DNA from: Patescibacteria group bacterium
Lineage (GTDB): Bacteria > Patescibacteriota > Minisyncoccia > UBA6257 > 02-FULL-45-10c
DNA length: 64,000 nt
Assembly (NCBI GenBank): GCA_018969615.1
Contig: JAGWYA010000005.1
Location: forward strand, 1,286 to 65,285
Direction: 5' to 3'
Made by a program: the position numbers and the translations under genes. Below are positions 2,571-61,368 of the stretch, piece by piece (position 1 is the stretch's first letter; every line of letters begins with the position of its first letter). The notes under the pieces were generated by a model. It had not been told where the DNA came from. It saw only the letters and a list, made by a program, of their open reading frames with translations, and did no database searches.

Positions 2571-2642
2571 GTCCTCGTAGCTTAATGGATAAAGTATCTG
2601 GCTTCGAACCAGATGATGGGGGTTCGATTCCCTCCGAGGACA
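2571..2642 (+). tRNA. tRNA-Arg (anticodon TCG); no encoded CCA
   Basis: Acceptor GTCCTCG/CGAGGAC. D-stem GCTT/AAGT. Anticodon stem TCTGG/CCAGA with loop CTTCGAA, anticodon TCG. T-arm GGGGG-TTCGATT-CCCTC. Discriminator A. Confidence 0.85.
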
Positions 2643-2880
2643 CAAGCACAGGAGATATCACTATGCCATGGTATAGTGATATCTCCATATGTTCTCTGAG
2701 GAATCGAACCAGCCGCACCCCGTATCAGGAAGGAATGGGAAACCGAAGGTGTCCCAGACGGGGGTCGGGGTGCGGCGGAGGTTCGAGTGAGCGAGCGGGC
2801 CGTCTGGCCGCGAGTGAAACTGACATTCCCCGAGGACACAAGCAATATATATCTCACTATGCTTTGGCATAGTGAAATAT
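2626..2880 (+). repeat. tandem duplication of the tRNA-Arg 3'-end. The 15-mer CCGAGGACACAAGCA occurs at 2634-2648 and 2829-2843. Each copy is followed by a related palindrome: TCACTATGC-N-GCATAGTGA.
   Basis: Direct comparison of 2626-2690 with 2821-2880. The first palindrome, GGAGATATCACTAT..ATAGTGATATCTCC, is a perfect 14-bp stem. Confidence 0.7.
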
Positions 2881-7840: not shown

Positions 7841-8557
7841 ATGAAACTCCATCGTTTTTTCATAGCCCCGGGCATGATCGAAGGTGGGATGATCCGCATT
7901 GATGATGCAGGAATACTGCATCAAATGAAGGACGTGCTCCGGTTCAAGCCGAATGATACGGTGGTTTTTTTGGACGGGACCGGTAAGGAGTATGAAGCGG
8001 TCATTGCCGAGCTTGCGCCGAAGTTCCTTCGTGCGGATATTACAGAGACTCGGGAGAATAAGAATGAGCCGGCGCTCCGGATCACGCTGTATCAGTCTTT
8101 GTGTAAAAAGGATAAGTTCGAATGGATCGTTGAAAAAGGGACTGAGGTCGGCGTGACCGCGTTCGTGCCGGTGCAGGCGTCGCGCTCGGAAAAATTAGGA
8201 TTGAACCGCGAGCGCGCGGAAAGGATCCTGCAGGAAGCGGCCGAGCAGTCGGAGCGGGGGATCGTGCCGTCATTGGGCGAGACTCTTTCGGTTGCAGAGG
8301 CGCTTGATGCCGCGCAGGGCGAAAAGATTCTCTTAGATGGTTCCGGTGAGTCTATTCATACATTCGACTTTCGACATTCGACTGATCGACTGAATCTTTT
8401 CGTCGGCCCCGAAGGAGGTTGGGCGCCTGAAGAGATCGCTTTGGCGCGTGAAAAAGGGGCGCGGATCGTCTCCATGGGCCCGCGCGTGCTCCGGACGGAG
8501 ACCGCGGGCATGGTCGCGGCGGCGGTTTTTTTAATGAAGGGTGAAGGGGTATACTAG
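7841..8557 (+). CDS. rsmE: 16S rRNA (uracil1498-N3)-methyltransferase RsmE
   Basis: N-terminal PUA-like region, a C-terminal SPOUT domain, and the conserved GPEGG...LRTETA motifs. Contains an in-frame heptamer-repeat tract at 8362-8396. Confidence 0.88.
   Translation: MKLHRFFIAPGMIEGGMIRIDDAGILHQMKDVLRFKPNDTVVFLDGTGKEYEAVIAELAPKFLRADITETRENKNEPALRITLYQSLCKKDKFEWIVEKGTEVGVTAFVPVQASRSEKLGLNRERAERILQEAAEQSERGIVPSLGETLSVAEALDAAQGEKILLDGSGESIHTFDFRHSTDRLNLFVGPEGGWAPEEIALAREKGARIVSMGPRVLRTETAGMVAAAVFLMKGEGVY
8362..8396 (+). repeat. tandem heptanucleotide tract: ATTCGAC TTTCGAC ATTCGAC TGATCGAC TGAATC. It sits inside rsmE and encodes HTFDFRHSTDRL.
   Basis: Direct reading of the sequence. The same NTTYGAC tandem motif recurs at 20401-20475, 24513-24548, 24672-24736, 24988-25045, 28314-28345 and 61326-61368. 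Confidence 0.85.
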
Positions 8558-13101: not shown

Positions 13102-13155
13102 CAAAAGGCCGCAATATGCGGCTTTCCGAAAGAACGTTACACGGCAATAGTATTG

Positions 13156-13418
13156 AAAGCAGGGCAGGTGTATATTTCTGTATTGAAATTCCACACAGAA
13201 ATATACACCTGCCCTGCTTTGACGAATTTCTGTATTGAAATTCCGCACAGAAATAGATATCCACCCTGTTCTTTTGGTGGTATATATGGTGTTACCGGGA
13301 AAGAAAAAGTAAGTTTTTGCTCTGTTTTTAAAGAATGTTTTTGGATGACAAAGAAAGCAAGGCAAGGACACATTTCTGTATTGAAATTCCACACAGAAAT
13401 TTGTCCTTGCCTTGCTTT
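13156..13418 (+). repeat. array of three family-1 hairpins sharing the 13-nt loop ATTGAAATTCC(A/G)C and the inner stem ATTTCTGT/ACAGAAAT. Hairpin A (13156-13220) has a perfect 26-bp stem. Hairpin B (13224-13252) has only the 8-bp inner stem. Hairpin C (13354-13418) has a 26-bp stem with one mismatch. The outer stems of A and C differ by compensatory changes.
   Basis: Left and right arms aligned by hand. A: aaagcagggcaggtgtatatttctgt / acagaaatatacacctgccctgcttt. C: aaagcaaggcaaggacacatttctgt / acagaaatttgtccttgccttgcttt. Confidence 0.85.
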
Positions 13419-13462
13419 AACTTGTTTTTTGATGTGGCATGATTTTCCATCCGCTTTTTTCA

Positions 13463-14745: not shown

Positions 14746-17700
14746 ATGGTCAAAAACAAAAGAATTATGAACAAACAATTAATCAGTAAAGTTTCGGTAG
14801 CGTTCGTCTCAGCGGCGACCGTTATCACGATGTCTGGTTTCGGTACGTTGGTGCCGGTTGTGGCACACGGCGTAACGATCGCAGATCTGCAGGCGCAGAT
14901 CGCGGCGTTAACAGCGCAGCTGGCGGCTTTACAGGGTTCGGCTACCACACCGGCGGCGGCAACGTCTTCGGCGGTTCCGGCTGACCTCCTTTCTTCTGGG
15001 GACCTCACCCTCGGCAGCACGGGAGCGGCAGTTATGGATCTGCAGAAGTTCTTGAACGCGAACGGTGCACAGGTTGCGGCGACTGGCGTCGGTTCTTCCG
15101 GCAATGAAACGACTTACTTCGGTTCATTGACCCAGAAGGCTCTCGCAAAGTGGCAGGCAGCTAACGGTATCGCCCCTGCATCCGGATACTTTGGTCCGAT
15201 CACTCGTTCCAAGTTATCTTCGTTGTCTGCGGCAGCTCCGGCTCCGACGACTACGACCACGACGACCACGACTACGACTACGACGACTCCGGCGGCAGCA
15301 GGTACCGGTTTGACCGTGACCTTGGCTCCGTCCCAGCCGGCGGCAAGTTTGGCTCCGAACGGAGCAACCCGCATCCCGCTCACGAAGGTGCAGTTGACTG
15401 CATCGGCTGACGGCGATGTGACGGTCAATGGTTTGACCGTGGAGCGCCAGGGTCTCGCGCAGGATGCTGCACTCAGTGCGGTTATGCTGCTCGATTCGAA
15501 CGGCGTTCAGATGGGTCTGAAGAAGACCTTGAATTCCAACCATCAGGCGGTTGTCGGTGACACCTTTACGGTGAAAGCCGGTACGACCATGACGGTGACG
15601 CTCGCGGCAAACCGCGGGACGACTTCGTCCTATGCAGGTCAGACCTTTGACTTGGCGCTTGTTGGCGTGAACACGACCGCAACGGTCAACGGCGCTCTGC
15701 CGTTGGTCGGTACGACCGATACGATCAACGAATCGTTGACGATCGGTACGGTTACGATGGCAAAGGGTCCGTTGGATCCGGGTGCGAGCCAGACCGAGAA
15801 TATCGGTACGACCGGCTACACCTTCTCCTCAGTGAAAGTCACTGCAGGTTCATCTGAAAAGGTTGACCTTCAGTCCGTCCGCTGGAACCAGACCGGTTCC
15901 GCAGGTTCGGGTGACTTGTCGAACGTAGTGACAGTTGTCGATGGTACTTCGTACCCGACAGTGGTCAGCGCCGATGGCAAGTATTACACGACGACCTTCC
16001 CGGGCACTGGTCTTTCGATCGATAAGGGTTCTTCAAGAGAGGTCTCTATTCGTGGCGATATCTCCGGCGGTTCATCCCGCACGGTTGAGTTCGACCTTGC
16101 GAAATTGACCGACCTTGGCCTTATGGGTGAGACCTTTGGCTACGGCATCACTCCTCCGCAGACCGGTTCCTCGGTTGCGGCGTATGGTGCGGACGCTTTC
16201 AGCTCGTCTGAAGATCCGTGGTTCGCTGGCGCCAAGGTGACGGTTTCTTCCGGTACTATGTCGGTCAGCACCTGGACAGGCGTGCAGGCTCAGAACGTGG
16301 CGATCAACTTGGCTAACCAGCCTTTGGGCGGATGGTCGGTTGACACTAAGGGTGAGCCGATCTCGGTTGGCAGCATGAAGTTCGTACTTCAGGTTAACCA
16401 GACGGGCGCGAACAAGGGCGGCTTGGCTGACTTGACCAACTTGCAGTTGGTTGACCAGACGGGTGCGGTCCTCGCAGGCCCGATCGATGCTACTGGCTCT
16501 GCAAACAATGGTACGATCACCTTCACGGATTCCGTGACGTTCCCGGTTGGTATCACGAACCTTACCCTTGAAGGTAAGCTCGGATCCAACTTCGTGAGCA
16601 ACGATACCGTGAGCGCATCGACGTCTCCGGCTACCGGATGGACTTCCGTCACTGGTCAGACGACCGGTAACGTGATCACTCCGACTGGATCGTCCTTGCA
16701 GTCGCAGAACATGACGGTGAAAGCCGCAGCAGTTTCTTTGAGCGTCTCCTCGGTGCCAATCGCACAGACGGTGATCGCCGGCTCCAACCAGTTCTTGTTC
16801 GCGAACTACCTCATGGACACGACCAGCTCTGGCGAAGATATGCGCTTGACCTCGCTTCCGCTTTACCTCACGGTAGGCGCTGGCGCGGCAACGGATCTCA
16901 CGAACTGCAAGCTGTACAACGGCTCGACGGTTCTGAACTCTGAGCATGTCCTCAATCCGACTGCGGCAGGTGCGAACATCGTTACCTTCGACTCCTCGTT
17001 GACCCTTCCGAAAGGAACGTCCACGACGCTGTCCTTGAAGTGTGACGTGTTGGCGTCCGCGACCGGTAACTACAACTGGGGCTTCCACTCCACGACCGCT
17101 TCCGCGACCGGCTTAACTTCCGGCCAGAGCGTGACGTTGGCAGATGCGAACAACCTCGGTCAGGTGATGACCTCGGCAACAGGCGGTGCGCTTACGGTGG
17201 CATTGGATTCGTCCTCTCCGTCGTATGCGATCGCTTCGCCTGGTCAGACGGTTGAATTGGCTCGTATCAAGTTCAGCGCAAGCAATGAAGATGTGAACCT
17301 TAAACAGGTTGCGCTTCAGTTGACTGGCTCTGCTTCGAACACGATCATCGACCTCGTCGGTCAGCAGGTGACCTTGAACACGGTCAGCGGTACGCAGGTT
17401 GGTACGGCGACGTTCACAAGCGGCGTTACTGCCACTTCGAGCGCCCTTTCCGGCTTCGTCGTTCCGAAGGATGGTTCCGCGGTGTTGGTCGTGAAGGGTA
17501 CGATCGCAGGTATCTCTGCGTCCGGTCCTTTGACCAAGTCCGGCGATCTCCTCAAGATTGACTATGACGGCAACAACACTGGCTTGACTGGTAACTATGG
17601 TACGGGCGTTTCGTCTGGTACTACGGTGACCCCGTCCGGCTCTGATACGGCGTCGAACGGCGTCCGCATCATGAAGTCGTATCCGACGCTTGCGCAGGTT

Positions 17701-20400: not shown

Positions 20401-20475
20401 CCTTTGACTCCTTTGACGGAATTTTTTGCTTTTTACGTTTGACATTCGACATTCAGACTTTTGACTATTTCGTGT
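20401..20475 (+). repeat. intergenic heptamer/octamer tract cluster: CCTTTGAC TCCTTTGAC ... ACGTTTGAC ATTCGAC ATTCAGAC TTTTGAC
   Basis: Direct reading. Same NTTYGAC family as the other six loci. Confidence 0.8.
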
Positions 20476-20489
20476 GTTATACTAACAGT

Positions 20490-21515
20490 ATGAAAAAAGC
20501 ACTTTTGTTCGCGGGAAGTCTGGGGTTGGTTTTTACGCTGGTCGGCATTGCATCGGCGGCATCGTTCGGGCGAGATCTGACGATCGGTTCGCAGGGAACT
20601 GATGTAACAGACCTTCAGAACTTTTTGACGCAGCAAGGCGTATATACAGGTCCGGTAACCGGGTATTTCGGCCCACTGACTCAGGAAGGCGTGAAGAAGT
20701 TCCAGGAAGCGCATCAGATCACACCGGTCGCCGGCTACTTCGGACCGCTGACGCGCTCGGCGGCGAATGGATTGCTCGGCGTTTCGCAGGCCGCTTCTGT
20801 TGTTTCCGCGGCTCCGGCTGCCTCGGCTGCTTCTTCGCAACTTGATACGGTTGCGGCTCTTTTAAAGCAGCTGCAGGCACTGAAGGATGAGCTTGCGGGA
20901 TTGACCGCTGCGGCTCCGGCGCCCGCTGCAACAACGACCCCCGCGGTTCCCGCGGTAACGCCGGCGACTACGACTCCTGTGACTGCGGTAGCGACCGCAA
21001 CACCGGCGGTTACGGCCTCATCTCTTCCGAATCCGTTTACGAGCCCGATGACGATCGTTTCCGATTATCCGTCCCGGACGCTCAGCTCTTATACCTCCGC
21101 CATTCTCAATGAATATGTTTTGAGCGGGGCACCCGAGAAAGTGGCGATCACAAAATTGCGCGTGACGAATGTCGGAACGTTCAGCGATATCTATATTAAC
21201 GAGTTGGCGTTGTCCAACAGTTTGACCGGGCAGGTGCTGGCGACGACCGGCGCGCCGGTGGACGGCGTAGCGGAGTTCGTGATGACGCCGGATGCGAGCA
21301 AGCCGGATAAGGGCGTGATGGTCTCGGGTGGGATCTATACGATCACGGGTGCGCTGCGGACGCCAAATATCGGGGGAACGAAGCCGTATCTCGAATTGGA
21401 TGTCGCATCATCCACTGACGTCACTGCGGTTGATTACGCGACGCTGTCGCGCACAGCCGACCTGGGGGGATCGAATGCGTTCCCGATCATCGGTCCGCGG
21501 ATCTCGGCTTTTTAG
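20490..21515 (+). CDS. secreted protein with an N-terminal signal peptide, a peptidoglycan-binding domain, an Ala/Pro/Thr-rich linker and a C-terminal domain
   Basis: MKKALLFAGSLGLVFTLVGIASA. PGBD repeats (GTDVTDLQNFL...GYFGPLTQEGVKKFQ...GYFGPLTRSAANGLL). A and PAT-rich linker. The start is trimmed to ATG 20490, since the track start translates the heptamer repeats. Confidence 0.8.
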   Translation: MKKALLFAGSLGLVFTLVGIASAASFGRDLTIGSQGTDVTDLQNFLTQQGVYTGPVTGYFGPLTQEGVKKFQEAHQITPVAGYFGPLTRSAANGLLGVSQAASVVSAAPAASAASSQLDTVAALLKQLQALKDELAGLTAAAPAPAATTTPAVPAVTPATTTPVTAVATATPAVTASSLPNPFTSPMTIVSDYPSRTLSSYTSAILNEYVLSGAPEKVAITKLRVTNVGTFSDIYINELALSNSLTGQVLATTGAPVDGVAEFVMTPDASKPDKGVMVSGGIYTITGALRTPNIGGTKPYLELDVASSTDVTAVDYATLSRTADLGGSNAFPIIGPRISAF

Positions 21516-22346: not shown

Positions 22347-24036
22347 GCGACCGGCTATGCGTACGTGGTTCAGGCCGAAATATGTGCTGATCGCGATCCT
22401 CGCGGTTGCCTTTGCGTTGCGGTTATGGGGGATCGGGAATACGGATATGCTCGGCGATGAAGCGGCTGATGCGTTCCGATCCGTCGGGTATATCGATTAT
22501 CTTGGAACGAGCGCCCAAACGCAGCCGATCGATTGGTTTAAGGATTCTCCGACGCTTCCCGCCTGGACCTCGCTGTCGTTCCATGATGATCCGCCGCTGG
22601 GATTCATGGTCCAGCATTCATTCTTTGCGTTCTTCGGCGATTCATCGACAACCGCGCGTCTCCCGGCGGTTCTTTTTGGTACGCTGGCGGTTTGGCTGCT
22701 CTATGAGATCGCTAAAAAATTGCTCGTGCGCGACCATCGCGGAAGAGATGATCTGTTGTCCGGCAATGCCGTCGAAGGCATCGCGCTTCTCGCGGCGGGA
22801 CTGTATGCGATCGAACCGGCGACAGTGGGTATTTTCCGGACTGCGCTTTTGGAGCCGATCCTCATTTTTTTCGTACTACTGAACCTTTGGTGTTTTCTGA
22901 AGTTCGTTGAGGACCGCCGCTGGTGGTGGCCGTTCGGATTGACCCTGGGAGCGGTTGCGCTGACCAAATATACGGGCGTATTCCTGGTGCCGCTGTATGC
23001 GCTGTACCTTTTTCTGTATGATCGGAAGTTGTTCCGGAGCTGGCGTTTGTATGCGGCGCTTTTGCTGACGGTCATTCTGTTCTCGCCGGTGATCATCTAT
23101 AACGCCCAGCTGTTTCAGGCGCGCGGCCATTTCGATCTGCAGTTCGCCTATCTGCTGCATCAGGCAACGCCCGAATGGACCGGTCTCATCGGGAAAACAC
23201 AGGCGCCGTTCTCGGCGATCATTCCGAATCTGATCACATCCTACGGGATCCCGTTCCTTGCAATGGCGCTTGCCGGTCTTGTCATCGCAGGGATCTGGTA
23301 TCGGAAATATCGCAGACAGGGGATGCTCTTTGTGCTTGCCTATGTTTTATTCTTGGGGCTGCTGTTGGTAAAGATCGGTTCGGCATCCCGTTTTCTGGCG
23401 ATGCTGGGACCTGCGTTTGTGATCCTTGCGGCCATCGCGTTATGGTCTCTGGCCGTGTTTCCGCGCGTTTCGCGTACCGGCCGGTACGCGCTGGTGCTTG
23501 CGGCGGCGCTCTTTATGGCTTATGAGGCGGGCGTTGCGATCGACCGGAATATCGTTTCCTATCCATCGTATGGCGTTGCGGGATTGGACAACTATTTCTC
23601 GCAGCAATTCAGCGGTATTGAGTCTGCGGTCATTCCGGAGGCCGATAATGTGCATCTGACGGCGATCACTAAGGAGTTCGCGGCAAAGAAATCAGCGATC
23701 GCGCCGCGGAAATTGGTGATGATCGTGTATAACGACCAGATAGCCCTTCCGACATTGGAATGGGTGTTCTATCGCCGTTTCTTCTATCATTCGATCCCGA
23801 CGATGTATGTGCAGAACTTTGAAAGCGCTTTGAAAGCGAATCCGACGCAGTTCAATGGTTTTACCGTTTATTTCGTGCAAACGACGCCGCATACCCTTTT
23901 GGACCCGTTCCGGGCGAACGATACGGCCGGCGATGCGTTTGAGCAGCAGGTCATCGCCAACGGCGTGCAGCCGGACGCGGTCATTTACGGCACCGGCCAT
24001 CAGGAAATGTTCCGCGTATACAAGTTTACACTGTAG
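22336..24036 (+). CDS. GT-C membrane glycosyltransferase. ArnT/PMT-like GT39/GT83, a paralogue of the gene at 18688..20394.
   Basis: Same architecture and first-loop motif (MLGDEAADAFRS). Shares many conserved blocks with the 18688 protein (e.g. HFDLQFAYL.HQATPEW, VYKFT). The start may be the Met at 22357. Confidence 0.82.
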   Translation: MANRRPAMRTWFRPKYVLIAILAVAFALRLWGIGNTDMLGDEAADAFRSVGYIDYLGTSAQTQPIDWFKDSPTLPAWTSLSFHDDPPLGFMVQHSFFAFFGDSSTTARLPAVLFGTLAVWLLYEIAKKLLVRDHRGRDDLLSGNAVEGIALLAAGLYAIEPATVGIFRTALLEPILIFFVLLNLWCFLKFVEDRRWWWPFGLTLGAVALTKYTGVFLVPLYALYLFLYDRKLFRSWRLYAALLLTVILFSPVIIYNAQLFQARGHFDLQFAYLLHQATPEWTGLIGKTQAPFSAIIPNLITSYGIPFLAMALAGLVIAGIWYRKYRRQGMLFVLAYVLFLGLLLVKIGSASRFLAMLGPAFVILAAIALWSLAVFPRVSRTGRYALVLAAALFMAYEAGVAIDRNIVSYPSYGVAGLDNYFSQQFSGIESAVIPEADNVHLTAITKEFAAKKSAIAPRKLVMIVYNDQIALPTLEWVFYRRFFYHSIPTMYVQNFESALKANPTQFNGFTVYFVQTTPHTLLDPFRANDTAGDAFEQQVIANGVQPDAVIYGTGHQEMFRVYKFTL

Positions 24037-24065
24037 GCAGTGGCCCGTAGGGAGTAGGCAGTAGT

Positions 24066-24093
24066 AAAAATTCCGCTGAAGGGCGGAATTTTT
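24066..24093. terminator. bidirectional terminator between convergent genes
   Basis: Stem AAAAATTCCGC/GCGGAATTTTT. A/T runs on both sides. Confidence 0.75.
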
Positions 24094-24139
24094 ATTGGAA
24101 ATTGGATATTGGAAATTATTTCTTCCTACTGCCCACGCG

Positions 24140-25330
24140 CTACTTGCTACGTACTATTTTCTCGTACACTTCCTCCGTCTTTTTCACCATCGTGGTGAGA
24201 TTGAATGATTTGCGGACAGCGGCGTGCGCTGTTTTTTCGATCTCGCGGGCGATCGACGGATTAGCGAGGAGTCCGGTGATCGCATGAGCAAGTTGTGCCG
24301 GGTCGCGCTGAGTGATCATGATGCCGTTCTCATGGCTTTTGATGATCTCTGGGATGCCCCCGGCCTCGGTGACGATGATCGGCAGCTCGGCCGCCATGGC
24401 TTCCAGGAGAATATACGGAAGACCTTCTTTGATGGAGGACATGACGAACATATCAAAGGCCTTCAGATACCGCGCATCATCTCCGGACGGCGGAATAAAA
24501 AAGAATCTATCGCTGACGTTCGACTTTTGACTTTCGACTTTTAGTTTCGGTAATTCCGGTCCATCGCCGATGATGAAGAAAACGCCGCGGGGGACCAAAG
24601 CGGCCGCGCGGATGAGCGTTTCATAGTTCTTTTCCTTGACGATACGTCCGATCGAACCGATCCAAACCTCTCCGACATTTGACATTTGACGTTCGCCGCC
24701 TTCAGCGAGCCTCGCCCCTGGCGGGACTTTTGACTTGCTTAAAATTTCTTCCCGGGCCTTTTCTTTGCTCAGAAATTTTAAGCTTGGATCGATGCCGTTA
24801 TGGATCATGGTGATCTTGTGATCGGGTGTGATGTGAAGTTGGCGGGCAAGCGCGGCATCGTATTCAGAAACGCAGATGATCGCATCCTGGAATTTCGCTG
24901 TGAGCATATGGAGGGCGATATAGAACCAGCGGATCGGTCCTGCGATCGCATTCGTCGGATTGAAGACCCAGCCATGCGCCGTGAAGACGACTTTGATTGG
25001 ATGACTTTCGACTTTAGACTTTCGACTTTTGACTTTATATATTCTGGCCGCGATCGCGCCTAATACCCCGGCTTTTGAACTATTGAGATGAAGAACGTCC
25101 GGCTGTTCGCGTTTGAGAAGGCGGACGATCTCCGCGACCGCGAGCCAGTCATTCGCGAACAGAAACCACGGACGCGTGGCGTTGGAAAGCCAGCGAAGGT
25201 CCTTTCCGCCATAGACGATCTTTGCTTCAAAGCGGTCCCGGGGGAGGCTTTGAGCAAGATCGGTGACGTATTTTTGCGCCCCGCCGACATCGGCTTTCGT
25301 GATTAGATAGAGGACTTTTATCTTTTTCAT
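24140..25330 (-). CDS. GT4-family glycosyltransferase (group-1 glycosyltransferase). Carries three internal heptamer-repeat tracts (24513-24548, 24672-24736, 24988-25045).
   Basis: C-terminal GT4 motif EGLPYILLEAMAAELPIIVTEAGG. N-terminal GT4 domain. The repeat tracts translate as SAKVESQKSNVSD, MSNVGE and KVKSRKSKVESHP. Confidence 0.88.
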   Translation of the reverse strand: MKKIKVLYLITKADVGGAQKYVTDLAQSLPRDRFEAKIVYGGKDLRWLSNATRPWFLFANDWLAVAEIVRLLKREQPDVLHLNSSKAGVLGAIAARIYKVKSRKSKVESHPIKVVFTAHGWVFNPTNAIAGPIRWFYIALHMLTAKFQDAIICVSEYDAALARQLHITPDHKITMIHNGIDPSLKFLSKEKAREEILSKSKVPPGARLAEGGERQMSNVGEVWIGSIGRIVKEKNYETLIRAAALVPRGVFFIIGDGPELPKLKVESQKSNVSDRFFFIPPSGDDARYLKAFDMFVMSSIKEGLPYILLEAMAAELPIIVTEAGGIPEIIKSHENGIMITQRDPAQLAHAITGLLANPSIAREIEKTAHAAVRKSFNLTTMVKKTEEVYEKIVRSK

Positions 25331-25533
25331 ACACTTTTCTTTTGGGAATTAGAAATTGGTTATTAGAAATTTAATCCTACTGCCCACTGCCTACGCACTA
25401 CTTACTTTTTAGCCCCGTATCCTTATTAGCCTTTCCGGTGTTATATACGGTAAAATTACACTATATCACGCTTTTGGCTTTAGGTTATTTACTGCCCACT
25501 TCCTACTGCCTACGTGCTATTTCTATAACACGC

Positions 25534-26712
25534 ATGAAGAATGAAAAGTCTAACATAGCCGTCTTTTCCTTCGCCTACGCCCCTTTTGAAGGAGGCGCTG
25601 AAGTGGCGCTTAGGGAGATCATGCGCCGGCTCCCGGCGTTCTCCTTTACCGTGTTCACGGCTCATTTTGACGAACGAAGCTCGATCCACGAGGTTCAGGA
25701 CCATGTGGAGATCATCCGTCTCGGAAAGCCGACTCGTCGCCGGTATGGCCTGTTGGTGAAAAAGGTCCGTTATATTTTTCAGGCATGGCAGGCGGCGGAA
25801 GAGCGGCACCGCCGCGCGCGGTTCGATGCGATCTGGGTGGTGATGGCATCCTATGGCGGCATCGCCGCGTTGTTGTTCAAGATGAAGCACCCCTCGATCC
25901 CGATGCTTTTGACCGTTCAGGAAGGGGATTCGGAACGGCATTTGAAATACGGCAAATTCGGCCTGGTCGGATTCTTTGGAAAGGTTTTATTGCATTCCGC
26001 CGATGCGATCCAGGTGATCAGCGGATATTTGCGCGATTTTGCGCTCAGGAAGGGCGCGTCGGAACCGATCACGGTCGTGCCGAACGGCGTTGATGAAAAA
26101 TTGTTCGCGACTGCATACGGTCCTGATCAGCTTCGGACCTTGCGGAACTATCTTGAGATCGGCGACGACTATGTGATCGTGACGACCTCGCGGCTCGTTC
26201 CGAAGAACGGCGTTGATATTCTGATCAAGGCGGTCGCCCGGTTCAGGGAGCGCCGCCCGAACGTGAAGTGTCTGATCATCGGCGGCGGACCGGAGCGGCA
26301 ACGCCTCGAAAGGCTTTCCCGCCGTCTGGGCGTCGAGCGGAACATCGTATTTCTCGGACAAATGGCGCAGAATGATCTCCCGCTGTATTTCGCGATCGCG
26401 GACATGTTCGCCCGGCCGTCCCGTTCGGAAGGATTGGGAAATTCGTTCCTTGAGGCAATGGCGGCGGGCATCCCGGTGATCGGAACGCCGGTAGGCGGGA
26501 TCGTGGATTTTTTGAAGGACGGTGAAACGGGATTTCTTGCGCAGCCGGAGGACCCGGAAAGCGTTGCAGCGAAAATGCATGAGATACTGGATAATGAAGC
26601 GCGGACGCAGGCGATCGTTGCGCGGGCGCGCGAACTGGTGGAGCGGTCCTATACCTGGGATGTTGTGGCGCGCATGATGCGGACGATCTTCGATCAATTG
26701 ATCAATCTATGA
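25534..26712 (+). CDS. GT4-family glycosyltransferase
   Basis: EGLGNSFLEAMAAGIPVIGTPVGG motif. Start trimmed to MKNEKSNIAVF (25534). Confidence 0.88.
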   Translation: MKNEKSNIAVFSFAYAPFEGGAEVALREIMRRLPAFSFTVFTAHFDERSSIHEVQDHVEIIRLGKPTRRRYGLLVKKVRYIFQAWQAAEERHRRARFDAIWVVMASYGGIAALLFKMKHPSIPMLLTVQEGDSERHLKYGKFGLVGFFGKVLLHSADAIQVISGYLRDFALRKGASEPITVVPNGVDEKLFATAYGPDQLRTLRNYLEIGDDYVIVTTSRLVPKNGVDILIKAVARFRERRPNVKCLIIGGGPERQRLERLSRRLGVERNIVFLGQMAQNDLPLYFAIADMFARPSRSEGLGNSFLEAMAAGIPVIGTPVGGIVDFLKDGETGFLAQPEDPESVAAKMHEILDNEARTQAIVARARELVERSYTWDVVARMMRTIFDQLINL

Positions 26713-27851
26713 AGAACCTTCTTATCGCGACCGGGATCTATCCGCCGGACATCGGCGGTCCGGCGACATATACCCGCATGCTTCGTTCCGCTCTGGGGGA
26801 TGTTTTTTCTGTTCAGGTCGTTACCTACGGCGAGCACAGCGCTGAAGACGGCGTGGCGCTGACGCGCGTATCGCGTGGCATGCCCAAGGGGATCCGTCAT
26901 TGTATGTATGCGTGGGCGGTGCTGCGCCGGGGATGGCATGCGGACGCGATCTTTGCGCAGGACACGGTGAGCGCTGGTTTTCCGGCAGTATGTGCGAATA
27001 TGATCTTGCGCAAGCCGTTCGTGGTAAAGGTGGTGGGTGATCATGCATGGGAACAGGGAGTGCAGCGGTTCGGCGTTCGGGACGGGATCGATGCTTTTCA
27101 AAAAAAGCGGTACGGCGTGCGTATTGAGCTGATGAAGCGGCTCCGTTCTTTTGTCGCGCGCCGGGCGACTCGTGTGATCGTGCCAAGCGAATATTTGGGG
27201 CGGCTGGTGGAGGGATGGGGTGTTTCGCATGAGCGGATCACAGTGATCTATAATGCGGTCGCGCCGCAGCGGGACCCGGGATCCCGCGATGCTCTGCGGA
27301 AAGAGCTCGGTATGAAAGGTATTGCGATCGTGTCTGCGGGGCGGTTGGTTCCGTGGAAGGGATTTTCTGTTCTTTTGAAAGCGTTCGCCGAAGTGCGATC
27401 CGAGATCCCGGACATCCGATTATTTATCATCGGCGACGGACCTGAGCGGACGCTCCTGGAAGATCAGGTGCGTGATTTAAAAGGTGCGGTCGTATTATGC
27501 GGAAGTTTGCCGCATGCCGCGGTGCAGAAATATCTTCATGCGGCTGATATCTTTGCGTTGAACACGGGGTATGAAGGATTTTCCCATCAGCTTATCGAAG
27601 CGATGGCTGCGGGATTGCCGGTTGTTACGACCGCCGTGGGAGGGAATGGTGAGGCGGTGCGATCTGGTGAGAACGGCATTTTGGTTCCTTATAATGATGA
27701 GCAGGCATTTGCCCAGGCGCTGAAGAGGCTTGCGGTTGATCCTAAACTTCGCGAACGGTATGCCGCGGAAGGAAAGCGTGCGGCGGAACGGTTTAGCGAG
27801 CCGGTAATGATCAATGCGACAAAAAAGATACTTCTCCGCGTATGCCAATGA
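26709..27851 (+). CDS. GT4-family glycosyltransferase
   Basis: EGFSHQLIEAMAAGLPVVTTAVGG motif. 4-nt overlap with the upstream gene, which suggests an operon. Confidence 0.88.
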   Translation: MKNLLIATGIYPPDIGGPATYTRMLRSALGDVFSVQVVTYGEHSAEDGVALTRVSRGMPKGIRHCMYAWAVLRRGWHADAIFAQDTVSAGFPAVCANMILRKPFVVKVVGDHAWEQGVQRFGVRDGIDAFQKKRYGVRIELMKRLRSFVARRATRVIVPSEYLGRLVEGWGVSHERITVIYNAVAPQRDPGSRDALRKELGMKGIAIVSAGRLVPWKGFSVLLKAFAEVRSEIPDIRLFIIGDGPERTLLEDQVRDLKGAVVLCGSLPHAAVQKYLHAADIFALNTGYEGFSHQLIEAMAAGLPVVTTAVGGNGEAVRSGENGILVPYNDEQAFAQALKRLAVDPKLRERYAAEGKRAAERFSEPVMINATKKILLRVCQ

Positions 27852-29005
27852 ATGTTCTTATGTTTTCGACGGATGCGTCCGTGCTTCGACCCGGTTCGGA
27901 AACCCATAAGCGAATGAAGGAATATGGAGAGCTGTTCGACAAGCTCCGGATCGTGGTGTATGCGCCGGGAGCTTCGACGGCGCCGGTGACCGTAAGCGAT
28001 CGCGTGACCGCGTATCCCGTTGGGGTTCAAAAGCGGTGGCGGTATTTCAGCGAGGCGTATCGGACCGGGAGTATGCTTATTAAAGAAAAAGCGGTGACGG
28101 TCATAACCTGCCAGGATCCTTTCGAGACCGGTATGGTCGGATGGATGCTTCGATCCCGTTTTCATATCCCGCTCCAGCTGCAGGTTCATACGGATATCTT
28201 CAGTCCGTTTTTTGCAGCCGAGTCGTTCAAGAATCGCGTACGCGTGATGCTTGCACGATTCCTGCTCCGCCGTGCCGACGGCATCCGCGTCGTCTCCGAG
28301 CGTATTAAGCGATCGCTTTTGACTTTTGACGTTCGACTTTCGACGAAGGTCGCCGTTCTTCCCATCTTCGTAGATGTGAAAAAGATCCAGCAGGCAAAAA
28401 TAAAGGTGGATCTGCATCAAAAATATCCTGAATACGGCAAGATCGTGCTGATGGCATCACGGCTGACGAAAGAAAAGCATATCGGGCTTGCGATCGAGGC
28501 GGTGAAGATACTGAACCGATCATTGGATGGCGAGAGCAATATGCTTTTGGTGATCGTCGGGGACGGTCCTGAAAAAGAACCCCTGGGATCGATGGTTGCG
28601 GCTGCCGGCTTGGGAAAGCATGTCGTATTTGAGCCCTGGACCTTGGATATGGCATCCTATTATAGAACAGCCGATTCCTTTGTATTGACCTCTGATTATG
28701 AGGGATACGGCCGGACCGTGATCGAAGCGATGGCGGCGGGGCTCCCGGTCATTATGACCGACGTGGGGATCGCGGGAGAGCTCTTTGTGGACGGATTGGA
28801 CGGGATCGTGACGCCGGTCGGCGATGCGGGCGCGGTCGCAGAGGCGCTCTGGGTGATGCTGGGCGATGCGGGGCTTCGGGAGGGTTTTATTACGCAGTCA
28901 CTGAAGATCACCGAGTCTTTGGGGGGCAAGAAAGAATATTTGCAGGCCTATCGGGCGGCGCTGGAAGCATGTGTAACGTCGCCAAAGGCGCGTATGAAGA
29001 ACTGA
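27842..29005 (+). CDS. GT4-family glycosyltransferase, with an in-frame heptamer tract at 28314-28345 that encodes LLTFDVRLSTKV
   Basis: EGYGRTVIEAMAAGLPVIMTDVG motif. Confidence 0.88.
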   Translation: MPMNVLMFSTDASVLRPGSETHKRMKEYGELFDKLRIVVYAPGASTAPVTVSDRVTAYPVGVQKRWRYFSEAYRTGSMLIKEKAVTVITCQDPFETGMVGWMLRSRFHIPLQLQVHTDIFSPFFAAESFKNRVRVMLARFLLRRADGIRVVSERIKRSLLTFDVRLSTKVAVLPIFVDVKKIQQAKIKVDLHQKYPEYGKIVLMASRLTKEKHIGLAIEAVKILNRSLDGESNMLLVIVGDGPEKEPLGSMVAAAGLGKHVVFEPWTLDMASYYRTADSFVLTSDYEGYGRTVIEAMAAGLPVIMTDVGIAGELFVDGLDGIVTPVGDAGAVAEALWVMLGDAGLREGFITQSLKITESLGGKKEYLQAYRAALEACVTSPKARMKN

Positions 29006-48383: not shown

Positions 48384-48386
48384 ATT

Positions 48387-49382
48387 ATGAAAGAGAAATT
48401 GCTTTTTTTGGTTAAATTATCTATCAGCATATTTTTGCTTTATTTAATTTTTACTAAAATAAGTTTTACAGCAATTTTTGATTCATTGCGCCATGCGGAC
48501 CCCACTTATTTTTTGATCGGATTTTTGACATTATTTATCGCGCTTGTTTTGAATACTAAGAAGTGGCAGCTTTTACTCAGATCCTTAAATTTTAATGAAG
48601 ATTTGCTTTCGCTTATAAAACTTAATTTAATAGGGACTTTTTATGGGACATTTCTTCCGGGCGGACAGATGACGGGTGAGGTTGCAAAATGTTATCGCAT
48701 ATCAAAAGGCAGGGATGATAAGCATAAGATTATTTTTTCTGTAGCCATGGATAGATTAATAAGCCTGATAACTTTTGTTTTTGTAGGGGCTGCGGCTTTT
48801 ATGATTGCGAGACCCAATATCCCAATGTATAGAGAGATCTTATCGGTCTTTATTGTATTTTTGTTTGCGTCGTTTCTGACCCTTTCCCTTTTTAGTGAAA
48901 AATTATTTTTTGTGATCTCTGGTTTACATAAGTATTTGTTGGGCGGGAATGAGAGTCATATAATATACCGCATATCACATCGAGCAATTGATACATTGTT
49001 CTCTTATAGGAATTCTGGTCGCACACTTTTCTATGCCTTTGTTTGGGGATTGGGATTTCAGCTCATGAATACATTGGGTACATATTTTTTCTCGTTGGCG
49101 GTAAGTGCCAACTTGCCGTTCATAGAACTGTTGTGGGTTAATACTTTAGTAAATATTGTAGTTGTCTTGCCAGTGGCTATTATGGGGCTCGGTGTACGCG
49201 AGATCAGTTTTGCATACCTTCTTTCTCTATTTGGAATTGCAATTTCAAAAAGCGTCAGCTTATCTTTATTAATTTTTACCGTAGCGCTTTTTAGCGCGAT
49301 TGTAGGCGGGGGTATTGAGTTGCACGAAGCTTTTATTAAAAATAATAAGTTGAATTCTGTGTCGAATAATAAAATTGCATGA
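48387..49382 (+). CDS. flippase-like membrane protein (lysylphosphatidylglycerol-synthase TM-region / UPF0104 family)
   Basis: FLVKLSISIFLLYLIF...W..LLRSL...GTFYGTFLPGGQMTGEVAKCYRISK is a characteristic block. AT-rich gene. Confidence 0.7.
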   Translation: MKEKLLFLVKLSISIFLLYLIFTKISFTAIFDSLRHADPTYFLIGFLTLFIALVLNTKKWQLLLRSLNFNEDLLSLIKLNLIGTFYGTFLPGGQMTGEVAKCYRISKGRDDKHKIIFSVAMDRLISLITFVFVGAAAFMIARPNIPMYREILSVFIVFLFASFLTLSLFSEKLFFVISGLHKYLLGGNESHIIYRISHRAIDTLFSYRNSGRTLFYAFVWGLGFQLMNTLGTYFFSLAVSANLPFIELLWVNTLVNIVVVLPVAIMGLGVREISFAYLLSLFGIAISKSVSLSLLIFTVALFSAIVGGGIELHEAFIKNNKLNSVSNNKIA

Positions 49383-51275: not shown

Positions 51276-51314
51276 CTTTTTGCATTTTTCAGAATTTTTT
51301 ACTTTTGGCTTTTT

Positions 51315-53114: not shown

Positions 53115-53120
53115 GAAATA

Positions 53121-61325: not shown

Positions 61326-61368
61326 CATTCACATTCGACTTTCGACATTCGACTAACGACTTTTACTC
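61326..61368 (+). repeat. intergenic heptamer tract: CATTCAC ATTCGAC TTTCGAC ATTCGAC TAACGAC TTTTAC
   Basis: Direct reading. Same family as 8362-8396. Confidence 0.8.

What the first reader, a model, noticed from the sequence alone, without database searches (positions are those of the whole stretch)
8362..8396. Dispersed family of tandem heptanucleotide tracts (N-T-T-Y-G-A-C)x3-5 inserted in genes and intergenic DNA
Seven loci carry 3-5 tandem, slightly degenerate 7-nt units such as ATTCGAC/TTTCGAC/TTTTGAC: 8362-8396, 20401-20475, 24513-24548, 24672-24736, 24988-25045, 28314-28345 and 61326-61368. At least three lie inside real coding sequences. In rsmE the tract reads ...HTFDFRHSTDRL... In the GT4 gene at 27842 it reads ...LLTFDVRLSTKV... 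Three tracts sit in the minus-strand GT4 gene 24140..25330. The frame is preserved in all of them. A 7-nt unit is not a multiple of 3, so any change in copy number would shift the reading frame. That is the architecture of slipped-strand phase-variation loci, and the genes affected are glycosyltransferases. Alternatively the tracts could be footprints of a short mobile or insertion-like element, or a protein-binding iteron. I know of no described element with this unit.
Basis: seen in the sequence. Interest (0 to 1): 0.8.

Follow-up and report, generated by a model that had tools for sequence, protein, structure and literature searches.

The report
Dispersed 7-base tandem repeats in glycosyltransferases
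A small uncultured (Patescibacteria) bacterium carries a real family of short 7-base tandem repeats, written in frame into flexible loops of its sugar-transferase genes and into gene spacers; it is a new variant of a known repeat type, and nothing found suggests an on/off switch.

Summary
Seven tracts of 3-5 tandem N-T-T-Y-G-A-C units are present, against 0.08 expected by chance. All lie on the G/T-rich + strand, and only period 7 is in excess. The contig comes from a Patescibacteria (CPR) genome close to Harrisonbacteria.

In coding DNA the tracts sit in loops or linkers of RsmE and two GT4 glycosyltransferases. Most are not insertions. Orthologues 50-85% identical carry heptamer arrays at the same slots, often with other units and sometimes inverted. 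Thirty-nine of 120 orthologues of the minus-strand GT4 encode a perfect heptamer-coded 7-mer at one of the same three sites (0.4 segments expected). Arrays are enriched in GT4 genes (31 of 37, 10 expected).

Copy number does not vary among close strains, and none of the GT4 genes in the six syntenic relatives' loci is frameshifted at an array. NeuO-type phase variation is therefore not supported. Instead, whole arrays are swapped as units. One array is 98% identical between genes that are 72% identical, yet differs between strains that are 99.4% identical.

Best reading: an STRR-like heptanucleotide repeat family, remodelled by slippage or template switching and tolerated only in permissive slots. 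It is a new variant of a known kind. A cis-acting function is not excluded.

The parts
8362..8396 (+). TTYGAC heptamer tract inside rsmE, sense strand. Reads ATTCGAC TTTCGAC ATTCGAC TGATCGAC and encodes TFDFRHSTDRL.
   Evidence: It lies in the loop 172-182 of the AlphaFold model, the lowest-confidence internal block (pLDDT 77). There is no indel relative to orthologues. The tract is conserved at DNA level in the 84%-identical orthologue (94% against 82% for the gene) and in the 59%-identical orthologue (80% against 59%).
20401..20475 (+). Degenerate TTYGAC tract in the spacer between a PMT_2 gene and a PG_binding_1 gene. The core is 20430-20473 (TTTTTAC GTTTGAC ATTCGAC ATTCAGAC TTTTGAC). It sits just upstream of a TGnTATACT -10-like box and the ATG at 20490.
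   Evidence: In the 85% relative L130 the -10 box and ATG are conserved, but the upstream spacer holds a different heptamer module of the GTAGGCA / ATTGGAA / TGCCTAC type.
24513..24548 (+). TTYGAC tract 3 of the minus-strand GT4 gene, antisense to the gene. The gene strand reads GTCGAAA GTCAAAA GTCGAAC and encodes KVESQKSNV after the GDGP motif.
   Evidence: It covers helix 260-269 and the following loop in the model. Orthologues encode VKCQMSNV, VKSEKLKV or VKSQNSNV, which are translations of (GTCAAAT)n or (GTNAAAA)n.
24670..24738 (+). TTYGAC tract 2 of the minus-strand GT4 gene, antisense. It is split by a 28-nt GC-rich palindromic in-frame insertion at 24698-24725, which accounts for 28 of the 30 extra bases (10 codons, PPGARLAEGG) relative to L130.
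   Evidence: It lies in the disordered inter-domain linker, pLDDT below 50 for residues 203-215. Orthologues carry (CCAAATT)n, (CAAACTA)n, (TTACGAC)n or (GTCGAAA)n at this site.
24988..25045 (+). TTYGAC tract 1 of the minus-strand GT4 gene, antisense. The core is TTTCGAC TTTAGAC TTTCGAC TTTTGAC and it encodes KVKSRKSKVES.
   Evidence: It covers the end of helix 85-104 and the following loop. The loop is indel-rich and the array is absent in P0127, P0161, P0173 and P0185. It is only 57% identical to L130, which has a 21-nt insertion relative to the window within a stretch forming two 7-bp GC hairpins.
28314..28345 (+). TTYGAC tract in the plus-strand GT4 gene, sense strand. Reads TTTTGAC TTTTGAC GTTCGAC TTTCGAC and encodes LTFDVRLSTKV, filling a 12-aa slot between VVSERIKxSL and VLPIF.
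   Evidence: The slot is 12 aa in 55 of the 85 orthologues in which it could be delimited. It is heptamer-coded (at least 8 of 12 aa fit a perfect array) in 24 of 55, against 0 of 275 shuffles. The same unit family is in inverted orientation in P0284, P0295, P0300, P0326, P0352, L128 and L132. The tract is 93% identical to L130 against 72% for the gene.
61326..61368 (+). TTYGAC tract filling the 45-nt spacer between ORF 60024-61325 and a TrwB/VirD4-like gene that starts at 61371. Its 21-nt core is identical to the rsmE tract.
   Evidence: As RNA it is unstructured (MFE -3.4 kcal/mol, z = 0.03). No Shine-Dalgarno motif precedes the gene, but that holds for 37 of 46 genes here.
24033..24159 (.). 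Other heptamer families in the convergent-gene spacer: (GTAGGCA)n, then a bidirectional terminator hairpin, then (ATTGGAA)3, then (TGCCTAC)n. The outer arrays are inverted copies of each other.
   Evidence: family D7; composite hairpin, z = -5. A similar module lies at 25340-25522 and, in L130, at a different spacer.

Best explanation
The seven tracts are one genome-specific family of short tandem heptanucleotide repeats with unit N-T-T-Y-G-A-C. They are the Patescibacterial counterpart of the dispersed heptamer simple-sequence repeats known as STRR in cyanobacteria, TAACTGA repeats in Beggiatoaceae and GGGAATC repeats in Xanthomonas.

Shown here:
- They are real and the excess is specific to period 7.
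- They are strand-uniform, T-rich on the G-rich and probably leading strand.
- They lie either in gene spacers or, in frame, in surface loops, a disordered linker or (tract 3) part of a confidently modelled helix.
- They are concentrated in GT4 glycosyltransferase genes.
- The same protein slots are heptamer-coded across a wide clade of relatives, with many related units.
- Between lineages, whole arrays are replaced or inverted without changing slot length.
- Copy number is stable among close strains.

Inferred:
- Arrays are born and kept periodic by replication slippage on a 7-nt register. This is the explanation proposed by Mrazek and co-workers in 2007, as relayed in PMC4692102 and PMC4679880.
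- Template switching or short-patch conversion between arrays, within a genome or with DNA from co-occurring relatives, homogenises the unit within a genome. The same process would produce the flips and swaps.
- Selection removes arrays everywhere except where 21-nt-compatible, sequence-indifferent segments are tolerated.

On this view the repeats are passengers. They have at most incidental effects on promoters or leaders, and they are not a switch.
For: - Seven tracts against 0.08 expected, all on one strand.
- The excess is confined to period 7.
- GC skew is positive across the whole window.
- The tracts map to a loop, a disordered linker and a helix end in confident models.
- There is no indel in RsmE or GT4(+).
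- Of 120 orthologues of the minus-strand GT4, 39 carry perfect heptamer-coded 7-mers: 49 segments against 0.4 in shuffles. About 44 of these lie at three positions (residues ~90-110, ~190-210 and ~240-260), with more than 25 different units.
- The GT4(+) slot is heptamer-coded in 24 of 55 orthologues against 0 of 275 shuffles. The units form a continuum of the NNNTCAA type.
- Syntenic loci of relatives are full of period-7 arrays, 11 in 21 kb of L129.
- 31 of 37 arrays lie in GT4 genes.
- Adjacent inverted units forming hairpins sit inside an array in L130. Inverted array pairs occur in the window's spacers.
- (TTTTGAC)3 is no more frequent than permuted-unit controls in viral contigs: 19 loci against 26 and 10. 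The unit itself is therefore not special.
- Published precedent exists for genome-specific heptamer families and for slippage (PMC4692102, PMC4679880).
Against: - Several tracts are more conserved at nucleotide level than their genes, although they encode unconstrained loops. RsmE: 80% against 59%. GT4(+): 93% against 72%.
- One array is the best-conserved 50 nt of a gene that is 72% identical overall (98%; L133 against L128). Neutral passengers should decay faster than that unless transfer or conversion is frequent.
- All tracts on one strand, 7 of 7 plus two further sites in L130, is not predicted by simple slippage.
- The GT4-specific enrichment is not explained by loop permissiveness alone. 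The large surface protein and the TPR protein in the same cluster carry none.
- No slippage event, meaning a copy-number difference, was actually observed. Only replacements were seen.
- Only 64 kb of the source genome was available.
Confidence: 0.58

Rival explanations
1. The arrays are functional cis-elements read by a trans-acting factor. Candidates are a DNA-binding protein recognising tandem TTYGAC heptads, as ToxR, ToxT or H-NS act on the TTTTGAT heptads of the ctxAB promoter, or an RNA-binding protein or ribosomal protein S1 using the unstructured U-rich repeat as a translation standby site, as proposed for TAACTGA repeats. Coding copies would be placed where the protein tolerates them.
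For: - Strand uniformity.
- Both intergenic tracts point towards and abut the downstream start codon.
- The tract is unstructured as RNA.
- The genome largely lacks Shine-Dalgarno motifs.
- Several tracts show above-average nucleotide conservation in unconstrained loops.
- The TTYGAC-type unit persists at the same slot in lineages whose GC content ranges from 38% to 54%.
- Precedents are in PMC4679880 and in the abstract of bioRxiv 10.1101/2021.05.14.444153.
Against: - Orthologous slots carry more than 25 different units, and either orientation, without any sign of loss of function.
- Three of the tracts are antisense to their gene, so an mRNA-level role cannot apply to them.
- Close relatives replace an intergenic TTYGAC tract with unrelated heptamer modules while keeping the -10 box and start codon.
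- There is no promoter-like excess.
- The absence of a Shine-Dalgarno motif is genome-wide and not specific to tract-preceded genes.
Confidence: 0.2
2. The arrays are slipped-strand contingency loci. Gain or loss of one or two 7-nt units shifts the frame and switches individual glycosyltransferases off and on, varying surface glycans, as in neuO of E. coli K1.
For: - A 7-nt unit in coding DNA is in frame only at multiples of three units.
- Arrays are enriched in glycosyltransferase genes, the classic targets of phase variation.
- neuO works exactly this way (PMC13001214).
- Some relatives have 4-5 perfect units.
Against: - The window's tracts have only 3-5 imperfect units.
- One tract is in rsmE.
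- No copy-number difference was found among contigs of the same species from different samples, nor between strains 99.4% identical. Five of six arrays are identical and the sixth is replaced rather than resized.
- The GT4 genes in the six syntenic relatives' loci are intact at their arrays, whereas 66% of neuO alleles are OFF (PMC13001214).
- The only truncated allele lies in an indel-ridden long-read contig.
- Tracts sit at three internal structural slots rather than near the 5' end.
Confidence: 0.07
3. The arrays are, or are made by, a miniature mobile or cassette-copying element. Preformed arrays are inserted or pasted into permissive sites, as with the in-frame Rickettsia palindromic elements or the 21-27-nt SDR elements of Nostoc, possibly from a master copy.
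For: - Two tracts share an identical 21-mer with similar degenerate flanks.
- Arrays are replaced precisely, with sharp borders, between 99.4%-identical strains.
- An identical 45-nt array is shared by genes that are 72% identical.
- Orientation flips occur at one slot.
- The same array types turn up in different GT4 paralogues in different genomes.
- Small GC-rich palindromes are inserted inside arrays.
Against: - There are no terminal inverted repeats, target-site duplications or fixed element length.
- The arrays are unstructured.
- Most sites show no length change relative to orthologues.
- No donor copy was found in the roughly 20-kb loci examined.
- No transposase or reverse transcriptase was linked. 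Only part of the window was annotated.
- Recombination mosaicism elsewhere in the same genes could account for the swaps.
Confidence: 0.13

Closest known systems
Cyanobacterial STRR (short tandemly repeated repetitive) heptanucleotides and the heptameric long SSRs of Mrazek et al. 2007, as described in PMC4692102 and PMC4679880
   Same: Tandem 7-nt units with a few copies per site. Many sites per genome share one or a few genome-specific units. The over-representation is specific to period 7. Arrays are also found as inverted pairs. Length and sequence vary between relatives at conserved positions.
   Different: Those repeats are reported as mainly intergenic. Here five of seven tracts, and nearly all arrays in relatives, are in frame inside conserved enzymes at fixed structural slots. 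The host is a CPR bacterium with a small genome. All copies in the window share one strand.
TAACTGA direct repeats of marine Beggiatoaceae (PMC4679880)
   Same: A single heptamer dispersed in sets of 2-6 copies. Many sets lie directly upstream of start codons without a Shine-Dalgarno motif. A minority lie inside ORFs, at protein peripheries. Horizontal spread is suspected, with no known mechanism.
   Different: TAACTGA carries stops in all frames in forward orientation, so it is mostly excluded from genes. The TTYGAC unit is readable in both orientations (TTTGAC in two of the three sense frames) and lies mostly in genes. No candidate binding protein was examined here.
neuO heptanucleotide coding VNTR of E. 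coli K1 (PMC13001214)
   Same: A 7-nt unit inside a coding sequence. Every three units encode seven amino acids. The frame is kept only at multiples of three. The gene modifies a surface polysaccharide.
   Different: neuO has 3-53 perfect units at the 5' end, its copy number differs between strains, and two thirds of alleles are OFF. Here there are 3-5 imperfect units at internal slots, stable copy number and no OFF alleles.
TTTTGAT heptad repeats of the Vibrio cholerae ctxAB promoter (abstract of bioRxiv 10.1101/2021.05.14.444153)
   Same: A nearly identical unit (TTTTGAT against TTTTGAC) in tandem upstream of a gene.
   Different: That is a single promoter locus bound by known regulators. 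Here the family is dispersed, mostly intragenic, and no regulator is known.
In-frame selfish insertions: Rickettsia palindromic elements and the Nostoc SDR elements of Elhai et al. 2008 (both from my own recollection; the SDR paper could not be opened)
   Same: Short repeated DNA tolerated in frame within conserved proteins at surface positions. Small palindromes are inserted within heptamer arrays, as at 24698-24725.
   Different: Those elements have a fixed length and a palindromic structure. The tracts here are unstructured tandem arrays of variable unit number.

Membership tests
Dispersed heptanucleotide SSR family (STRR / long SSR type) | Head-to-tail repeats of a 7-nt unit, a few copies per site | tested here: met
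   3-5 units per site with at most 1 mismatch per unit.
Dispersed heptanucleotide SSR family (STRR / long SSR type) | Excess over chance that is specific to period 7 | tested here: met
   7 arrays against 0.15 expected at period 7. Periods 5 and 8-14 are at chance.
Dispersed heptanucleotide SSR family (STRR / long SSR type) | Many sites in one genome sharing one unit | tested here: met
   Seven sites in 64 kb, and six of the seven period-7 arrays are of this unit. The close relative L130 has the same family. The rest of the source genome was not available.
Dispersed heptanucleotide SSR family (STRR / long SSR type) | Predominantly intergenic location | tested here: not met
   Five of the seven tracts are inside genes. 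In the window plus five relatives' loci, 31 of 37 arrays lie in GT4 genes. This is the main departure from described families.
Slipped-strand phase-variation locus (neuO type) | Long run of identical units | tested here: not met
   There are 3-5 units, and the units differ from one another within each tract.
Slipped-strand phase-variation locus (neuO type) | Copy number differs among close strains, including out-of-frame (OFF) alleles | tested here: not met
   Tracts are identical in three contigs of one species. Five of six arrays are identical in strains 99.4% alike, and the sixth is replaced rather than resized. Members of 90%-identity clusters show no unit-number change. The truncated P0267 is an assembly artefact.
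Slipped-strand phase-variation locus (neuO type) | Within-population heterogeneity in reads | not testable with these tools
   No read data are available.
Regulatory heptad or iteron binding site | Location in promoters or origins, with the unit conserved at orthologous sites | tested here: inconclusive
   Two of seven tracts lie upstream of genes. The orthologous spacer in L130 carries other heptamers. Some coding tracts are unusually conserved.
Regulatory heptad or iteron binding site | A cognate binding protein | not testable with these tools
   No candidate was identified.
Miniature mobile element (RPE / SDR / REPIN type) | Fixed length, terminal or internal palindrome, target-site duplication | tested here: not met
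   Length is variable, and no inverted termini or duplications are visible in the flanks. The tract does not fold.
Miniature mobile element (RPE / SDR / REPIN type) | Presence/absence or replacement polymorphism at orthologous sites | tested here: met
   Tract 1 is absent in some orthologues. Arrays are replaced or inverted as units.

The most novel reading that the evidence does not exclude
Heptamer arrays in this CPR clade are not passive microsatellites. They would be units actively copied, by template switching, short-patch conversion or an unknown enzyme, into a small set of fixed slots in GT4 glycosyltransferase genes. That would make them a previously undescribed cassette-like system that keeps these slots periodic, swaps and flips them between strains and species, and may tune or diversify surface-glycan enzymes.
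Probability: 0.12. Interest if true: 0.75.

Novelty: new variant of a known kind. Interest (0 to 1): 0.5.

Why it matters
Heptanucleotide repeats are the most over-represented long simple repeats in many bacteria, yet how they arise, spread and share one unit within a genome is unexplained.

This clade may offer a clean natural experiment. The genomes of this group are small (from general knowledge of CPR bacteria; only single contigs were examined here). The arrays sit at fixed, alignable slots inside conserved enzymes, so array birth, unit turnover, inversion and exchange can be traced against a gene tree.

If the swaps prove to be templated, that would reveal a new route of localised sequence exchange in uncultured CPR bacteria. 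If the arrays prove to be phase-variable after all, it would be, to my knowledge, the first contingency system proposed for this radiation.

Tried and rejected
1. Cyanobacterial origin. I guessed this from GCGATCGC (13 copies) and from the resemblance to STRR. It was rejected: the proteins are Patescibacterial.

2. Tracts as lineage-specific insertions. Rejected for RsmE and GT4(+), which show no indel.

3. A special, widely conserved TTYGAC element.
- The exact 21-mer occurs in 24 metagenome loci unrelated to the window.
- Permuted-unit controls are equally common in viral contigs.
I therefore dropped the idea. The control was run only on viral contigs.

4. Promoter function through TTGAC as a -35 box. 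There is no promoter-like excess in 20-29 kb, and only the 20430 tract precedes a -10-like box.

5. A truncated homologue, P0267, ending exactly in tract 2 as an OFF allele. Rejected: its contig has 11 scattered indels in 1.4 kb.

6. A split GT4 in L131 as an array frameshift. Rejected: the break is not at an array, and an integrase-family (rve) gene lies about 0.6 kb away.

7. A donor copy for the swapped array. None was found within the fetched loci.

8. The exact look-up of the window's RsmE first returned nothing. The protein was later found as P0001.

10. Elhai et al. 2008 could not be opened.
Full report

Yes.

A scan for at least three consecutive 7-nt units matching N-T-T-Y-G-A-C, with at most one mismatch per unit, returns exactly seven tracts. 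Their cores are 8362-8382, 20430-20450, 24518-24538, 24670-24697, 25006-25033, 28317-28344 and 61333-61353. All seven are on the + strand and none on the - strand. Third-order Markov shuffles give 0.08 tracts on average.

Other counts and tools agree:
- The bare hexamer TTYGAC occurs 66 times on the + strand and 20 times on the - strand.
- TRF finds the tracts independently.
- The general repeat finder lists them first, as family D1, among the direct-repeat families of the window.
- A unit-blind test counted arrays of at least 3 copies at each period. The excess is specific to period 7: 7 arrays against 0.15 expected. Periods 5 and 8-14 are at chance. Six of the seven period-7 arrays belong to this family.

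The range 24672-24736 is one tract interrupted by a 28-nt GC-rich palindrome at 24698-24725, which is absent from the closest relative.

**2. Context**

The window is from a Patescibacteria (CPR) genome.
- Its RsmE and GT4 proteins are 100% identical to NCBI proteins of a 'Patescibacteria group bacterium' on a 66-kb contig.
- The nearest named relatives are Candidatus Harrisonbacteria.

GC skew is positive over the whole window and most genes are on the + strand. The + strand is therefore the G/T-rich strand and probably the leading strand.

- 7841-8557 is RsmE.
- 24140-25330 (-) and 27842-29005 (+) are GT4 glycosyltransferases.
- These lie in a conserved cluster of GT4, GT2 and PMT_2 genes.
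- The tract at 20430 lies upstream of a PG_binding_1 gene.
- The tract at 61333 fills the 45-nt spacer before a TrwB/VirD4-like gene.

**3. The tracts lie in permissive parts of the proteins and are mostly not insertions**

In AlphaFold models built with orthologue alignments:
- The RsmE tract is the loop 172-182 (pLDDT 77).
- GT4(-) tract 1 is the end of helix 85-104 plus the following loop.
- GT4(-) tract 2 is the disordered inter-domain linker (pLDDT below 50 for residues 203-215).
- GT4(-) tract 3 is helix 260-269 plus a loop, just after the GDGP motif.

Alignments with orthologues show no length change in RsmE. They show none in the 12-aa slot of GT4(+) either, between VVSERIKxSL and VLPIF. 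Only GT4(-) tract 1 lies in an indel-rich loop that is empty in some orthologues.

**4. The same slots are heptamer-coded across the clade**

RsmE:
- The tract is present at DNA level in an orthologue 84% identical, as TTTCGAC CTTCGAC ATTCGAC.
- It is present in an orthologue 59% identical, as TTTTGAC TTTCCAC ATTCGAC tTTTCGAC.
- It is still visibly 7-periodic in a low-GC orthologue 58% identical.

GT4(-):
- Orthologues carry, at the three tract positions, peptides that are plain translations of other heptamer arrays (DNA confirmed):
  - VKCQMSNV = (GTCAAAT)n
  - PNSKFQIPNS = (CCAAATT)n
  - QTTNYKLQTNY = (CAAACTA)n
  - TTYDLRLTT = (TTACGAC)n
- Of 120 orthologues, 39 contain at least one 7-mer exactly encoded by three identical heptamers. 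That is 49 segments against 0.4 in shuffled proteins.
- About 44 of the 49 segments lie at residues ~90-110, ~190-210 and ~240-260, the window's three tract sites. More than 25 different units are involved.

GT4(+):
- The slot could be delimited in 85 of 120 orthologues and is 12 aa long in 55 of them.
- In 24 of those 55, at least 8 of the 12 residues fit a perfect heptamer array. None of 275 shuffles reached that score.
- The units form a continuum of the NNNTCAA type, which suggests descent with concerted modification.

Syntenic loci of relatives are rich in period-7 arrays, with 11 in 21 kb of a Harrisonbacteria genome. Across the window and five such loci, 31 of 37 arrays lie in GT4 genes, against 10 expected from the length of those genes. 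These loci were fetched around an array-bearing GT4 gene, which inflates the figure somewhat. Arrays in the other GT4 paralogues account for most of the signal.

**5. How the arrays change**

(a) Copy number is stable over short distances.
- Three contigs of one species from different samples have identical tracts.
- Two strains 99.4% identical over 15 kb share five of six arrays unchanged.
- Members of 90%-identity protein clusters show no change in unit number.

(b) Whole arrays are replaced.
- The largest cluster of differences between those two strains is exactly GT4 tract 2. There are 22 differences in 45 nt, (AATTCCN)5 against a degenerate (CAAANTA) array, with identical flanks.
- The (AATTCCN)5 array is 98% identical to the array in another species whose gene is only 72% identical overall. 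It is the best-conserved 50 nt of that gene.
- The other strain's array resembles that of a third lineage.

(c) Arrays flip.
- In the GT4(+) slot, the window, L130 and several orthologues about 53% identical carry TTYGAC on the sense strand (LTFDVRLSTKV).
- An orthologue 70% identical, and many others, carry the same unit family on the antisense strand (SNVKCQMSNV).
- The slot length is the same in both groups.

(d) Small GC-rich palindromes are inserted inside arrays.
- One lies in the window at 24698-24725.
- L130 tract 1 has a 21-nt insertion relative to the window. The surrounding stretch forms two 7-bp hairpins whose stems (CCCCGAC/GTCGGGG and AGCCGAC/GTCGGCT) are inverted, unit-like sequences.

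(e) Spacers are mosaics of heptamer arrays of at least three families: TTYGAC, ATTGGAA and GTAGGCA/TGCCTAC. These occupy different spacers in the window and in its 85% relative, while the promoter -10 boxes and start codons stay in place.

(f) Several tracts are more conserved at nucleotide level than their genes:
- RsmE: 94% against 82% in one comparison, and 80% against 59% in another.
- GT4(+): 93% against 72%.
- GT4(-) tract 1, by contrast, is only 57% identical.

**6. Is the unit itself special?**

Probably not.
Arrays turned up in cyanobacteria, Bacteroidota, Planctomycetota, several Patescibacteria and others, often as inverted pairs.
- The exact 21-mer shared by two of the window's tracts occurs in 24 metagenome loci. 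These have 36-69% GC and none is related to the window.
- In viral contigs, (TTTTGAC)3 gives 19 loci. Two permuted units of the same composition give 26 and 10 loci.

Heptamer microsatellites of many units are simply common. This agrees with the literature. Heptanucleotide repeats are the most abundant class of long simple repeats in many bacterial genomes, and polymerase slippage has been proposed as the cause (Mrazek et al. 2007, as summarised in PMC4692102 and PMC4679880).

**7. Mechanism**

The best-supported reading is an STRR-like, genome-specific heptanucleotide repeat family.

Shown:
- the period-7-specific excess;
- the shared unit and the shared strand;
- residence in permissive loops, linkers and spacers;
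- clade-wide persistence of periodicity at fixed slots, with unit turnover;
- replacement and inversion of arrays as units;
- stable copy number.

Inferred:
- Slippage on a 7-nt register creates the periodicity and keeps renewing it.
- Template switching or short-patch conversion between arrays homogenises the unit within a genome. The donor could be another array in the same genome or DNA taken up from co-occurring relatives. The same process would produce the flips, the swaps and the hairpin-like inverted units.
- Selection on frame and slot length confines arrays to sequence-indifferent segments.

I put this at about 0.58.

The main rival, at about 0.2, is a functional cis-element.
- For it: the strand uniformity, the position of both intergenic tracts immediately before start codons, the unstructured RNA and the unexpectedly high nucleotide conservation.
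- Against it: the diversity of units and orientations at orthologous slots, and the antisense copies.
- The lack of Shine-Dalgarno motifs is genome-wide (9 of 46 genes have one) and points to leaderless transcripts rather than to a tract-specific role.

A miniature mobile or cassette-copying element (about 0.13) would explain the swaps. The arrays, however, have no ends, no target duplication and no linked enzyme.

Classical phase variation (about 0.07) fits only the arithmetic of a 7-nt unit and the glycosyltransferase bias. The neuO paradigm has 3-53 perfect units, strain-to-strain copy-number change and 66% OFF alleles (PMC13001214). None of these is seen here. The single truncated homologue is an artefact of an error-rich long-read contig.

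**8. Comparison with what is known, and novelty**

The general class is known. It includes STRR heptamers in Calothrix and Nostoc, GGGAATC in Xanthomonas (PMC4692102) and TAACTGA in Beggiatoaceae, with some copies inside ORFs at protein peripheries (PMC4679880). It also includes the heptad promoter repeats of ctxAB and the coding heptanucleotide VNTR of neuO.

Three aspects are, to my knowledge, not described:
- the occurrence in CPR bacteria;
- the predominance of in-frame copies at fixed structural slots of conserved GT4 enzymes across a whole clade;
- the unit-wise replacement and inversion of arrays at constant slot length.

I therefore rate this a new variant of a known kind, of moderate interest.

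The limits are that only 64 kb of the source genome was available, no reads could be examined, the control for unit specialness used viral contigs only, and the relatives' loci were fetched around array-bearing GT4 genes, which biases the enrichment figure.

Noticed in passing
window 13155-13421: Three copies of a ~69-nt near-perfect hairpin. The loop region (TTTCTGTATTGAAATTCCACACAGAAA) is conserved, while the stems differ between copies yet stay complementary. MFE is -46 and -40 kcal/mol, z = -12 and -9. No Rfam family matches. It could be a structured RNA or a REP-like palindromic element.
   Followed up: partly
window 2634-2699 and 2830-2895: Two copies of a 66-nt palindromic repeat (GGAGATATCACTATGCCATGGTATAGTGATATCTCC core) just downstream of a tRNA gene at 2571-2642.
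   Followed up: no
window 24030-24165; also 25340-25522; L130 14970-15140: A composite spacer module: (GTAGGCA)n, then a bidirectional terminator hairpin, then (ATTGGAA)3, then (TGCCTAC)n. It folds into one long hairpin (z = -5). The module sits in different spacers in the window and in its 85% relative.
   Followed up: partly
window 24698-24725: A 28-nt GC-rich palindromic insertion inside heptamer tract 2 of the GT4 gene. It is in frame, accounts for 28 of the 30 extra bases (PPGARLAEGG) relative to L130, is absent from L130 and is unique in the window. Orthologues show similar P-x-G-R-containing inserts in the middle of their arrays (for example P0314, P0332, P0396, P0253). This hints at a second, tiny insertion element that targets the arrays.
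   Followed up: partly
window, all gene starts: Only 9 of 46 genes have a Shine-Dalgarno-like motif. Many have a TATAAT-like box 6-12 nt before the ATG, which suggests widespread leaderless mRNAs in this organism.
   Followed up: partly
window 46000-54000: GC content drops from about 0.54 to 0.40-0.44 over roughly 8 kb while GC skew stays positive. This may be a horizontally acquired segment.
   Followed up: no
window 15245-15292: An ACGAC-based tandem repeat with periods 6, 9, 15 and 21, inside the 1209-aa PG_binding_1 protein gene. A partial copy lies at 20958-20988.
   Followed up: no
window, whole: GATC-containing words dominate the oligomer spectrum. GCGATC is the commonest hexamer (103 copies), and the HIP1-like octamer GCGATCGC occurs 13 times against about 1 expected.
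   Followed up: no
window 25438-25560: The GTG start listed for ORF 25438-26712 lies inside a conserved promoter-like stretch, and a TGCCTAC heptamer array sits at 25481-25522. The Pfam domain begins at residue 52, so the true start is probably further downstream.
   Followed up: no
L017 2914-3202, L111 643-790, L031 6546-6566: Loci L017 (Planctomycetaceae), L031 (Thermoguttaceae) and L111 (organism not identified here) share a ~28-nt heptamer-built sequence, ATTCGACATTTGACTTTCGACATTCG[AT]C. In L017 and L111 it occurs as inverted pairs 60-260 nt apart. This looks like a separate repeat family.
   Followed up: no
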